IMG/VR virus record: IMGVR_UViG_3300035191_000049
Source of the DNA: a virus
Strand: one strand, 5' to 3'
Length of the DNA stretch: 64,000 nt
The first letter of the stretch is position 1; each line of letters starts with the position of its first letter. The translations under genes were made by a program, and so were the position numbers. Shown piece after piece: positions 35,037 through 35,874 of this stretch. The notes beneath the pieces were generated by a model. That model was not told the DNA's origin, ran no database searches, and saw only the letters and a program-made list of their open reading frames with translations.

Positions 35037-35450
35037 GTGGAGGATATCGTGAACGTTCAACAGCTTAAGGCTCATATCAAAGAAACGGTCGAGGAGAAGG
35101 TCGCTCTCACGCGTGAGCGTCGAGAGTACAAGCTCGCAACGCGAGGGAAGGTCGACGAGAGCGCAAGGCGCTCCTGGTTCTGGGACATCGATGGACGACG
35201 CTGGGAAAAGAAGTGGGACATTCGCATGGCGCTGCTCGCCTACGGATTCCTGCGCGGCCGTGACTACAAGCGGCTGGAGCCCAAAGTTCGGGAAGGCAAC
35301 GAACCGAGCTGGAGCGACATCGAGTGCGTCATCGAGGCTCAAGTCGACGATGCCTCCGACGACTTCACCAAGGCCGACCTCAAGGAGTGGCTCAAGGGCG
35401 CCCCATCCCCCTTCGCGCGCAAGCGCGATGACGAGGAGAAGGCGGCATGA
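35037..35450 (+). CDS. hypothetical protein
   Basis: sigma70-like TTGACA..CATGATAGT promoter ~34815-34850 upstream. Confidence 0.45.
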   Translation: MEDIVNVQQLKAHIKETVEEKVALTRERREYKLATRGKVDESARRSWFWDIDGRRWEKKWDIRMALLAYGFLRGRDYKRLEPKVREGNEPSWSDIECVIEAQVDDASDDFTKADLKEWLKGAPSPFARKRDDEEKAA

Positions 35451-35776
35451 TGGGCAAGCTCTACATCGTCGTGAGGGGCGACCTCTCACCTGGCCTTCGT
35501 GCAGCCCAGGCCTGCCACGCTCAAAGACTGTTCGTCGAAGAGCACCCCGAGGTGGACCGGGACTGGTACGAAAACTCCAACACCATCGTCATCCTGGAGG
35601 TCCGGGACATCGACGAGCTGATGGACCTGGCGTTCGATCTCGACGCTCGCAACATCAGGTTCTCTCAGTTCGACGAGCCCGACCTGCAGAACGAGCCGAC
35701 AGCCATCGCCGTCGCGCCCGAGGGGAAAGGATTTTTACGGAGGCTACCACTGGCTTTCGAGCCGGAGGCTGCCTGA
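35447..35776 (+). CDS. pth2: peptidyl-tRNA hydrolase, PTH2 family
   Basis: 'KLYIVVRGDLSPGLRAAQACHA', 'TIVILEV', 'TAIAVAPEGK' match PTH2 family motifs; ATGA coupling. Confidence 0.6.
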   Translation: MMGKLYIVVRGDLSPGLRAAQACHAQRLFVEEHPEVDRDWYENSNTIVILEVRDIDELMDLAFDLDARNIRFSQFDEPDLQNEPTAIAVAPEGKGFLRRLPLAFEPEAA

Positions 35777-35797
35777 CACCAGGGGCTTCGGCCCCAC

Positions 35798-35874
35798 GCG
35801 GGGGAAGCTCAACCGGACGAGCGGGCGGTCTTTAAAACCGCTGGATGCGGGTTCGAATCCCGTCCTCCGCACCA
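35798..35874 (+). tRNA. tRNA with anticodon UUA (ochre suppressor), CCA encoded
   Basis: acceptor GCGGGGG/CCTCCGC, D-arm GCTC..GAGC, anticodon stem GCGGT/ACCGC with loop CTTTAAA, T-arm GCGGG TTCGAAT CCCGT, A73, CCA. Confidence 0.6.

What the first reader, a model, noticed from the sequence alone, without database searches (positions are those of the whole stretch)
35447..35874. PTH2 peptidyl-tRNA hydrolase followed by an ochre-suppressor tRNA (anticodon UUA)
A + strand 77-nt tRNA folds canonically: acceptor GCGGGGG/CCTCCGC, D-arm GCTC/GAGC, anticodon stem GCGGT/ACCGC, T-arm, A73, encoded CCA. Its anticodon loop is CTTTAAA, so the anticodon is 5'-UUA-3', which reads UAA stop codons. It lies 22 nt after a PTH2-family (archaeal/eukaryotic-type) peptidyl-tRNA hydrolase gene. 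Many genes here terminate with TAA, including TAATG-coupled pairs, so this is not global recoding. It may be a temporally regulated read-through or anti-defence device (compare suppressor tRNAs in recoded phages).
Basis: seen in the sequence. Interest (0 to 1): 0.7.

Follow-up and report, generated by a model that had tools for sequence, protein, structure and literature searches.

The report
Phage stop-codon tRNA linked to PTH2
A huge-phage genome carries a well-formed tRNA that reads the UAA stop codon, next to a peptidyl-tRNA-hydrolase-like gene. The same pairing recurs in about three-quarters of the related phage loci sampled, so it looks like a conserved but undescribed module for handling stop codons during infection, not a sign of a changed genetic code.

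Summary
ARAGORN and Rfam (55.7 bits) both call a + strand tRNA at 35798-35874 with anticodon UUA. It starts 22 nt after a PTH2-fold gene (35447-35776).

TAA is not recoded. It ends 23 of 82 predicted genes in the window, and alternative codes lower the coding density. A complete 485-kb relative with the same PTH2-tRNA(UUA) pair (LR745208) is also standard-code throughout.

Of 70 unique PTH2 loci with full flanks, 53 (76%) carry a co-oriented CUA or UUA tRNA within 2 kb. Stop-anticodon tRNAs make up 59/197 tRNAs near PTH2 and 4/157 farther away. The loci include cluster C mycobacteriophages, Lak megaphages and huge phages. A third partner, the helical-hairpin protein ORF137 (35037-35450), sits beside PTH2 or the tRNA in 30 of 93 loci.

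UUA is the rare variant of a usually CUA tRNA. The closest relative keeps UUA; relatives at 62-69% PTH2 identity have CUA.

I found no paper describing this linkage. The function is inferred: a working ochre/amber suppressor, with PTH2 recycling peptidyl-tRNA by-products. The inserted amino acid, the targets and in vivo activity are unknown.

The parts
34818..34846 (+). Sigma-70-like promoter candidate (TTGACA-17-CATGAT) in the divergent intergenic region upstream of the operon
   Evidence: Consensus scan. This is a pattern match only, not evidence of function.
35037..35450 (+). ORF137: a conserved helical-hairpin protein of unknown function. Its stop overlaps the PTH2 start (ATGA).
35447..35776 (+). 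PTH2-like (peptidyl-tRNA hydrolase 2 fold) gene, 109 aa, stop TGA
   Evidence: Pfam PF01981, E 1.6e-9. phrog_1866. NCBIfam Pth2 equivalogs score far below cut-off, 28 vs 126 bits. The fold matches only Pth2 structures. Invariant residues Q21, H24, E77, D79 and T85.
35782..35795 (+). GGGGC-UUCG-GCCCC hairpin between the PTH2 stop and the tRNA 5' end, with no U-tract. Probably a processing or stability element, not a terminator.
   Evidence: RNAfold; sequence. It was not called as a terminator.
35798..35874 (+). tRNA with anticodon 5'-UUA-3' (anticodon at 35832-35834), A36-A37-A38, A73, encoded CCA
   Evidence: ARAGORN. Rfam. The sequence is identical in six metagenome contigs of the same phage and nearly identical in the closest relative L101.
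35876..36184 (+). ORF102: a small ORF starting 1 nt after the tRNA's CCA. It is conserved downstream of the tRNA in close relatives.
   Evidence: ORF list. tblastn gives 82% identity in L101 and 36% in L102, in the same position. No family hit.

Best explanation
The element is a genuine, expressed tRNA that decodes UAA and, by U34 wobble, UAG. It is the rarer UUA variant of a stop-anticodon tRNA (usually CUA) that large phages keep in a small co-transcribed module. The module also holds a divergent PTH2-fold hydrolase and, in many cases, an ORF137-family helical-hairpin protein. In this phage the module is not used to read TAA as a sense codon. Instead it changes what happens to ribosomes at UAA/UAG stop codons in the infected cell. 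The tRNA lets a fraction of them read through rather than wait for release factor. PTH2, together with the phage's own tmRNA just beyond the window, recycles the peptidyl-tRNAs and stalled complexes this creates. Shown here: the tRNA and its anticodon, the PTH2 fold, the operon layout, the conserved linkage, and the standard code. Inferred: expression, aminoacylation, actual read-through, PTH2 activity and the division of labour.
For: The tRNA is canonical and scores well. Its loop C32-U33-UUA-A37-A38 is the context shared by nearly all the linked CUA tRNAs. By established knowledge, A36-A37-A38 is the MiaA i6A37 determinant typical of tRNAs that read U-starting codons. The layout ORF137-PTH2-hairpin-tRNA-ORF102 is tight: a 4-nt overlap, a 21-nt gap and a 1-nt gap. 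Linkage: 53 of 70 unique PTH2 loci with 2 kb or more on both sides have a co-oriented CUA/UUA tRNA within 2 kb. Stop-anticodon tRNAs are 59/197 of tRNAs within 2 kb of PTH2 and 4/157 beyond it (odds ratio 16, p 6e-13). In LR745208 the only stop-anticodon tRNA lies 75 nt after PTH2 and 134 kb from the region holding 34 of the other 35 tRNAs. In the window it lies 9 kb from the 32-tRNA array and on the opposite strand. The module spans Bxz1, Myrna-like phages, Lak-B4 and huge phages. The UUA anticodon is conserved in the closest relative, and CUA is found in the next ones. In TAG-recoded relatives the PTH2 gene itself contains in-frame TAG, so there the linked tRNA must insert an amino acid. The code is standard here and in the complete LR745208 genome. 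The phage has its own tmRNA.
Against: There is no direct evidence of expression, charging or read-through. TAA (28%) and TAG (30%) are not avoided as stop codons. TAA/TAG-terminated genes show no enrichment of nearby back-up TGA stops in the window or in LR745208, so suppression is weak, timed or tolerated. A8 and the extra base at the D/anticodon junction are unusual for a working elongator tRNA. The PTH2-like protein lacks the Gly-Lys loop aligned in archaeal Pth2 and fails the NCBIfam equivalog cut-offs, so its substrate may not be ordinary peptidyl-tRNA. The role of ORF137 is unknown. The linkage statistics come from loci chosen by PTH2 similarity and dereplicated only at the level of identical proteins, so shared ancestry inflates the p-value.
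Confidence: 0.5

Rival explanations
1. Sense recoding elsewhere in the genome. The tRNA exists to translate in-frame TAA and/or TAG codons in late (structural or lysis) genes that lie outside this window, as in Lak and other recoded phages where recoding is confined to late regions.
For: The window and its about 15 kb of known flanks hold no recognisable structural genes, so late genes were not examined. Orthologous modules occur in TAG-recoded phages (L005, L021/22, L028, L055, L071). Lak phages leave large regions free of TAG (PMC6784885).
Against: LR745208 is a complete 485-kb genome with the same PTH2-tRNA(UUA) pair and no other stop-anticodon tRNA. No 25-kb segment gains coding density under a TAA-, TAG- or TGA-sense code, and its same-frame junctions are ordinary adjacent genes. 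Cluster C mycobacteriophages carry the module and are annotated in the standard code. A survey of 10,754 jumbo-phage genomes reported none with TAA recoding (PMC13037316). About 58% of genes in the window end in TAA or TAG.
Confidence: 0.15
2. The tRNA is not an amino-acid-inserting decoder. Together with PTH2 and ORF137 it forms a ribonucleoprotein with a different job. One option is a stop-codon-guided release or rescue device, in which the anticodon finds the stop codon and PTH2 supplies hydrolysis. Another is a decoy or regulator whose acylation state PTH2 controls, possibly to counter a host defence acting at vacant A-sites on stop codons.
For: Three-way co-oriented linkage of the hydrolase, an Arg/Lys-rich helical-hairpin protein and the stop-anticodon tRNA, with variable gene order but constant adjacency. 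The module is present in standard-code genomes where no sense targets exist. The PTH2 is divergent. The tRNA has unusual features: A8 and an extra junction base here, 8-nt loops and 6-bp anticodon stems in relatives.
Against: In TAG-recoded relatives the same kind of tRNA must insert an amino acid, because TAG occurs inside PTH2 itself. There is no precedent for such a device. Nothing here shows that the proteins bind the tRNA or the ribosome. The ORF137 fold is not diagnostic.
Confidence: 0.12
3. Evolutionary leftover. The tRNA is a decaying or neutral remnant of a suppressor from a recoded ancestor, or a mutated sense tRNA, with no present function.
For: No targets were found and stop-codon usage is not adapted to it. 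A8 departs from the consensus. The literature notes phage suppressor tRNAs that 'appear inactive' (PMC12386605; XacN1, PMC5852040).
Against: The cloverleaf is intact, with a good Rfam score, an ideal anticodon-loop context and an encoded CCA. The tRNA is embedded tightly in an operon. The UUA version is retained in a relative whose PTH2 is only 88% identical. The pairing with PTH2 persists across very distant phages, which argues for selection.
Confidence: 0.1

Closest known systems
Amber-suppressor tRNA(CUA) of TAG-recoded (code 15) phages such as Lak megaphages and crAss-like phages (bioRxiv 10.1101/2021.08.26.457843; PMC6784885)
   Same: It is a phage-encoded class I tRNA with a stop-complementary anticodon in a C/U-U-NNN-A-A loop. 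Orthologous PTH2-linked tRNAs in relatives (LR756501, L021, L028, L055, L071) serve genomes with in-frame TAG.
   Different: The anticodon is UUA, not CUA. This genome region and the complete UUA-bearing genome LR745208 use the standard code, with TAA and TAG as frequent terminators. The recoding papers I searched do not mention a hydrolase at all.
Suppressor tRNAs in standard-code jumbo phages (XacN1: two CUA tRNAs; Atu_ph07: one UCA tRNA)
   Same: A suppressor tRNA sits in a large phage that otherwise uses the standard code, and no read-through targets can be identified (PMC5852040; PMC6102473). Those phages also encode peptidyl-tRNA hydrolases.
   Different: In those papers the tRNA and the hydrolase are listed separately and are not adjacent. 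The XacN1-like phages Xoo-sp13 and RAS14 have a PTH2 domain inside a larger ORF with no tRNA within 4 kb. Here the two are 21 nt apart in one operon.
Cluster C mycobacteriophage tRNA array (Bxz1 gp154 + 'tRNA-OTHER' gene 155; Myrna, ScoobyDoobyDoo, Phabba)
   Same: A PTH2 homologue (42-52% identical) is followed within 130-310 nt by a co-oriented tRNA(CUA). These phages also carry large tRNA sets, and the C1 group carries a tmRNA (PMC5966550), as this phage does.
   Different: The anticodon there is CUA, annotated as 'tRNA-Pyl', 'tRNA-OTHER' or even 'tRNA-Arg'. The module lies inside the array, whereas here it is 9 kb away on the other strand. My profile search found no ORF137-like gene in those loci.
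Classical E. coli ochre suppressors (supG/supL from tRNA-Lys, supB from tRNA-Gln, supC/supM from tRNA-Tyr); from established knowledge, not tested here
   Same: The anticodon is UUA. Such tRNAs read both UAA and UAG and suppress weakly, because RF1 and RF2 both compete at UAA.
   Different: Those arise by single anticodon mutations of host sense tRNAs. This tRNA is not a recent copy of the phage's own Lys, Gln, Glu, Trp or short Leu tRNAs, and it is a conserved phage gene.
Canonical archaeal/eukaryotic Pth2 (PF01981; structures 2zv3, 1xty, 3erj, 1q7s)
   Same: It has the same fold (TM 0.75-0.80) and passes the Pfam threshold. The acidic-x-D...T-A motif near the C-terminus is conserved.
   Different: Sequence identity is only 20-26%. 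It scores far below the NCBIfam equivalog cut-offs. A two-residue deletion removes the Gly-Lys of the 'GKGK' loop. From memory, unverified here, that loop carries a catalytic lysine in Sulfolobus Pth2.

Membership tests
tRNA (Rfam RF00005) | Cloverleaf scoring above the family's gathering threshold, on a defined strand | tested here: met
   55.7 bits against a gathering score of 29, + strand only. ARAGORN agrees. The RNAfold minimum-energy structure is the cloverleaf.
tRNA (Rfam RF00005) | Conserved tertiary nucleotides (U8, A14, G18-G19, T54-T55-C56, A58) | tested here: inconclusive
   A14, the GG in the D-loop and the TTCGAAT T-loop are present. Position 8 is A, not U, and there is one extra base between the D and anticodon stems. 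Bxz1's tRNA-Trp also has A8.
Nonsense (ochre) suppressor tRNA | 7-nt anticodon loop with U33 and an anticodon complementary to a stop codon | tested here: met
   The loop is C-U-UUA-A-A, so the anticodon is UUA.
Nonsense (ochre) suppressor tRNA | Aminoacylated in vivo and inserts an amino acid at UAA/UAG | not testable with these tools
   Identity elements are ambiguous (A73, G1-C72, C2-G71, G3-C70, class I). The tRNA has no close sense-tRNA paralogue.
Nonsense (ochre) suppressor tRNA | Identifiable read-through targets or stop-codon usage adapted to it | tested here: not met
   The window has no in-frame TAA with coding signal on both sides beyond one chance same-frame neighbour pair at 14016. 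Back-up stops are not enriched. TAA and TAG remain common terminators.
Alternative-genetic-code (stop-recoded) phage | Coding density or gene integrity improves when the stop codon is read as sense | tested here: not met
   Window: density is 0.775 under the standard code, 0.750 with TAA as sense and 0.739 with TAG as sense. LR745208: 0.852 vs 0.840 and 0.836, with at most a 4-point gain in any 25-kb segment. Late genes of this particular phage were not available.
Pth2 peptidyl-tRNA hydrolase (PF01981 / NCBIfam NF003314, TIGR00283) | Profile match above the curated cut-off | tested here: inconclusive
   Pfam is met (38.4 bits vs 23). The NCBIfam equivalogs are not met (28.3 vs 126; 22.4 vs 82). 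This makes it a divergent subfamily (phrog_1866).
Pth2 peptidyl-tRNA hydrolase (PF01981 / NCBIfam NF003314, TIGR00283) | Pth2 alpha/beta fold | tested here: met
   AlphaFold model with pLDDT 94.8. The top 14 Foldseek hits in the PDB are all Pth2 structures.
Pth2 peptidyl-tRNA hydrolase (PF01981 / NCBIfam NF003314, TIGR00283) | Catalytic residues and esterase activity on peptidyl-tRNA | tested here: inconclusive
   Q21, H24, E77, D79 and T85 are invariant in the phage family. The Gly-Lys loop of archaeal Pth2 is deleted. I could not retrieve a source giving the catalytic residues. Activity cannot be tested here.
PTH2 + stop-anticodon tRNA module (defined here) | Co-oriented CUA/UUA tRNA within 2 kb of a PTH2-like gene | tested here: met
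   The window has a 21-nt gap on the same strand. The same arrangement is present in 53 of 70 unique loci.
PTH2 + stop-anticodon tRNA module (defined here) | ORF137-family helical-hairpin gene adjacent to PTH2 or the tRNA | tested here: met
   In the window, ORF137 overlaps the PTH2 start. The family is found in 30 of 93 loci, always co-oriented.

The most novel reading that the evidence does not exclude
PTH2-like hydrolase, the ORF137-family helical-hairpin protein and the stop-anticodon tRNA form a dedicated three-component phage device that acts on ribosomes at stop codons. It would work either as a tRNA-guided peptide-release or rescue system independent of host release factors, or as a suppressor tRNP with a built-in release-factor antagonist and clean-up enzyme. 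On this reading it is not a plain suppressor tRNA that happens to sit beside a housekeeping hydrolase.
Probability: 0.12. Interest if true: 0.9.

Novelty: new variant of a known kind. Interest (0 to 1): 0.62.

Why it matters
Phage suppressor tRNAs are normally discussed only as tools for stop-codon recoding, and those found in standard-code phages have been left unexplained. A stop-anticodon tRNA that is physically and evolutionarily tied to a PTH2-fold hydrolase, and often to a third conserved protein, points to a selected function at the termination step of translation. The pairing spans mycobacteriophages, Lak megaphages and environmental huge phages, and it occurs with or without recoding. 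It also suggests a stepping stone for how recoding evolves: a module that already tolerates read-through. The question can be tested directly, because cultivable cluster C mycobacteriophages (Bxz1, Myrna) carry the same module. UUA-type natural suppressors are rare, and a compact phage ochre suppressor could also be useful for genetic-code engineering.

Tried and rejected
- **Minus-strand reading (Leu-UAA):** rejected. Neither ARAGORN nor Rfam calls the minus strand.
- **TAA or TAG recoding in the window:** rejected by stop usage, a same-frame junction test and alternative-code gene calling.
- **Recoding in LR745208:** TAG (28/174) and TAA (12/122) same-frame junctions looked enriched over TGA (11/276). 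Inspection showed ATG/RBS starts 0-4 codons after the stop, a 'TAG-NNN-ATG' operon style. The best TAA candidate, at 458254, separates a sliding-clamp-like ORF from an SMC/Rad50-type ATPase fragment, with a TTG directly after the stop.
- **Back-up (tandem) stop signature:** not found.
- **Strain-level covariation:** not possible, because all six other contigs of this phage are 99.9-100% identical.
- **Exact-pattern search for the tRNA in IMG/VR:** no hit. Megablast of the locus against GenBank phages also found nothing.
- **Amino-acid identity from similarity:** not resolved. The best, weak match is Bxz1 tRNA-Trp, and there is no close paralogue among the phage's own tRNAs.
- **ORF137 function from fold:** only generic coiled-coil matches (SMC, SerRS arm, DksA) and uncharacterised phage proteins. 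The AFDB library was unavailable.
- **The 277-aa ORF inserted in relatives' modules:** no Pfam hit and no homologue in the window. A weak aeRF1-like hit (E 0.004, below cut-off) on a 172-aa neighbour in L106 was not pursued; its homologue lies outside the module, upstream of the window.
- **Catalytic residues of Pth2:** I could not retrieve a source.
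Full report
**1. The observation**

The sequence at 35798-35874 (+) is GCGGGGGAAGCTCAACCGGACGAGCGGGCGGTCTTTAAAACCGCTGGATGCGGGTTCGAATCCCGTCCTCCGCACCA. ARAGORN reports it as the only + strand tRNA among 33 in the window: 'tRNA-Stop', anticodon tta. Rfam's tRNA model matches the same strand and span at 55.7 bits against a gathering score of 29. RNAfold's minimum-energy structure is the cloverleaf, preceded by a GGGGC-UUCG-GCCCC hairpin.

Two features went unmentioned. Position 8 is A rather than the near-universal U. 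There is also one extra base between the D and anticodon stems, which ARAGORN draws as a sixth G.U pair.

The ORF at 35447-35776 matches Pfam PTH2. It folds with pLDDT 94.8 into a structure that matches only Pth2 crystal structures. It is divergent, though. It is 20-26% identical to solved Pth2s and scores far below NCBIfam's Pth2 equivalog cut-offs. It also lacks two residues of the Gly-Lys loop seen in archaeal enzymes.

**2. What kind of genome this is**

The window has 57% G+C and carries 32 more tRNAs on the minus strand between 45 and 63.5 kb. It also encodes DNA methyltransferases, radical-SAM enzymes, a kinase, an HNH endonuclease and a Ro60-like RNA-binding protein. No structural genes were recognised.

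Its proteins match metagenomic 'huge phage' genomes of 462-735 kb only weakly. The same phage, at 99.9-100% identity, is present in at least six metagenome assemblies. Just beyond the window's end, the array continues with Lys, Asn, Gln, Phe, Ser and Pro tRNAs and a phage tmRNA.

**3. Is TAA, or TAG, read as sense?**

I built a self-trained codon-usage gene caller. It finds 82 genes, with stops TGA 34, TAG 25 and TAA 23. I then looked for stop codons with coding signal in the same frame on both sides. Only one TAA case turned up (14016, two neighbouring genes), which is what chance would give. Reading TAA, TAG or TGA as sense lowers both the coding density and the total coding score. TAA-terminated genes do not have closer back-up stops. 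So the window uses the standard code.

Recoded phages often confine recoding to late genes (PMC6784885; bioRxiv 10.1101/2021.08.26.457843), and this window has none. I therefore tested a complete genome that carries the same pair. LR745208 (485,034 bp) has PTH2 followed 75 nt later by a tRNA(UUA), its only stop-anticodon tRNA.

- It is 85-86% coding under the standard code, with stops TGA 276, TAG 174 and TAA 122.
- No 25-kb segment gains more than 4 points of density under an alternative code, and whole-genome density and score are highest under the standard code.
- An apparent excess of same-frame junctions at TAG and TAA is explained by start codons 0-4 codons after the stop.
- There is no back-up-stop signature.

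A published survey of 10,754 jumbo-phage genomes likewise reports no TAA recoding (PMC13037316).

**4. The wider pattern**

A tblastn search with the PTH2 protein found 232 GenBank phages, mostly cluster C mycobacteriophages, plus Lak megaphages and huge phages. In seven of the first nine loci examined, a tRNA with anticodon CUA or UUA lies next to PTH2 on the same strand. These are ScoobyDoobyDoo, Bxz1 (annotated 'tRNA-OTHER'), Phabba, LR756500, LR756501, LR745208 and Lak-B4.

I then took 80 IMG/VR loci found with a PTH2 profile and ran ARAGORN on all of them. After removing identical PTH2 proteins:

- 57 of 78 loci have a CUA/UUA tRNA within 4 kb, all 57 on the PTH2 strand. Of these, 48 are downstream, and the median gap is 543 nt. 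This tRNA is the nearest tRNA to PTH2 in 40 of the 70 loci that have any tRNA.
- Among the 70 loci with at least 2 kb on both sides, 53 (76%) have such a tRNA within 2 kb.
- Stop-anticodon tRNAs are 59 of 197 tRNAs within 2 kb of PTH2 and 4 of 157 farther away (odds ratio 16, p 6e-13).

These loci are not phylogenetically independent, so the p-value is generous. However, the tRNAs are very diverse in sequence, and the phages range from 23% to 66% G+C.

Two further cases show that the stop-anticodon tRNA travels with PTH2 and not with the tRNA arrays. In LR745208 it lies 134 kb from the region holding 34 of the other 35 tRNAs. In the window it lies 9 kb from the array and on the other strand.

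CUA is the rule. UUA occurs only in the window, L101, LR745208, L019 and Lak-B4. Among closer relatives found by protein search, the 88%-identical PTH2 (L101) is followed by an almost identical tRNA(UUA). The 62-69% relatives (L102, L104, L106) have a CUA tRNA with a partly different acceptor stem and G73. One relative (L013) has an 8-nt loop, ACUCUAAA.

**5. A third partner**

ORF137 (35037-35450) overlaps the PTH2 start. tblastn and then a profile search find its family in 30 of 93 loci. It is always co-oriented and within about 1.1 kb of PTH2, either just upstream of PTH2 or just upstream of the stop-anticodon tRNA.

It has no match in Pfam, PHROGs or NCBIfam. Its confident model is a long antiparallel helical hairpin with a basic conserved motif. 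Fold searches return only generic coiled coils and uncharacterised phage proteins. ORF102, which starts 1 nt after the tRNA's CCA, is conserved in the nearest relatives only.

**6. How it most likely works**

In several relatives PTH2 itself contains in-frame TAG (LR756501, L021/22, L028, L055, L071). In those phages the linked tRNA(CUA) must therefore insert an amino acid. By homology and loop context (C/U32-U33-NNA-A37-A38), the window's tRNA is best read as a working decoder of UAA. By the well-known wobble of ochre suppressors, it would also read UAG.

In this phage and in LR745208 there are no sense targets. The selected effect must therefore be on termination itself, either partial read-through or relief of ribosomes waiting at UAA/UAG. 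The constant companion, a peptidyl-tRNA-hydrolase-fold enzyme, fits a clean-up role for the peptidyl-tRNAs and stalled complexes that read-through or slow termination produce. The phage's own tmRNA fits the same picture. This division of labour is inference. Nothing here shows expression, charging, read-through or enzyme activity. The lack of TAA/TAG avoidance or back-up stops means that any suppression is weak, timed or tolerated.

The rivals are:

- recoded late genes outside the window;
- a non-decoding ribonucleoprotein, such as tRNA-guided release or rescue, or a decoy;
- a functionless relic.

**7. Comparison with what is known**

Phage suppressor tRNAs (mainly CUA and UCA) and phage PTH2 genes have each been reported. 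Examples are XacN1 and Atu_ph07, the jumbo-phage review by Iyer et al. and the mycobacterial tRNA-array study, which noted PTH2 and 'Pyl/Sec' tRNAs in cluster C arrays.

Six full-text searches and the papers I read found no statement that the two are specifically linked, and no mention of the ORF137 family. The element is therefore a member of a known kind (a natural suppressor tRNA) in a rare UUA form, sitting in a module architecture that appears to be undescribed.

**8. Caveats**

- Gene calls come from my own simple caller.
- ARAGORN can mis-assign anticodons in odd loops.
- The locus sample is the best 80 of 225 PTH2 hits and is biased toward large phages.
- The code status of most low-G+C loci could not be judged from 8 kb.
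- The catalytic residues of Pth2 are cited from memory only.

Noticed in passing
window 44983-45059, 45330-45405, 46301-46374, 47548-47622 (all - strand): Four tRNAs with leucine anticodons (CAA, UAA, GAG, UAG) are only 74-77 nt long with short variable loops, whereas bacterial tRNA-Leu is normally class II with a long arm. Two normal long-arm Leu tRNAs sit among them (45582, 46161). Similar short Leu tRNAs occur next to PTH2 in Myrna-like mycobacteriophages.
   Followed up: partly
window 30495-33449 (-): A 984-aa protein has precomputed Pfam hits to major vault protein domains (MVP_shoulder, Vault_3/4). Homologues lie within 3 kb of PTH2 in L021/22, L032, L042, L047, L068 and L102. PHROGs and NCBIfam gave no hit.
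   Followed up: partly
window 56724-58310 (-): A Ro60/TROVE-vWA-like RNA-binding protein (Pfam vWA_Ro60; phrog_850 'RNA-binding protein', E 1e-32) lies inside the tRNA region. A partner Y-RNA-like gene was not looked for. Together with the vault-like protein this is a striking set of RNP-type genes.
   Followed up: no
L098 7153-7516 (just beyond the window's 64000 end, opposite orientation): ARAGORN predicts a phage-encoded tmRNA with tag peptide VNTDNYHEAPLARAA. It sits in the continuation of the tRNA array, which also holds Lys, Asn, Gln, Phe, Asp, Ser and Pro tRNAs.
   Followed up: partly
window 54893-54966 (-): Rfam finds this tRNA (49.5 bits) but ARAGORN misses it. The anticodon loop CUUCCAA makes it an ordinary tRNA-Gly(UCC).
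   Followed up: yes
window 50510-50598 (-) and 61622-61695 (-): An 89-nt tRNA with a CAU anticodon and a long extra arm is unusual for Met or Ile2. There is also a tRNA-Ile with anticodon UAU, which is rare in bacteria.
   Followed up: no
LR745208 position 142332 (locus L110), + strand: ARAGORN reports a tRNA of undetermined type with a four-base anticodon 'ttta' in an 8-nt loop, inside the main tRNA region of the UUA-bearing huge phage. It could read UAAA or be a frameshift-type decoder. L013's PTH2-linked tRNA also has an 8-nt loop.
   Followed up: no
window 36608-37417 (-): A P-loop ATPase with AAA_23 / AAA_21 (AbiEii-like) / SMC_N matches converges on the module's operon. A relative's locus (L104) has an Acb2/Tad1-hairpin anti-defence domain protein two genes upstream of PTH2.
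   Followed up: no
L101 825-1658, L102 5332-6165, L106 3413-4246: In the closest relatives a conserved 277-aa ORF with no Pfam match is inserted between PTH2 and the stop-anticodon tRNA, overlapping the PTH2 stop. It is absent from the window.
   Followed up: partly
L005 (LR756501) 6421-6494 and 6499-6574; also L034, L037, L054, L055, L084: Several PTH2 loci carry two different CUA tRNAs. One of each pair often has a 6-bp anticodon stem, a 3-nt variable loop and a reduced D-arm, features reminiscent of tRNA-Pyl architecture.
   Followed up: no
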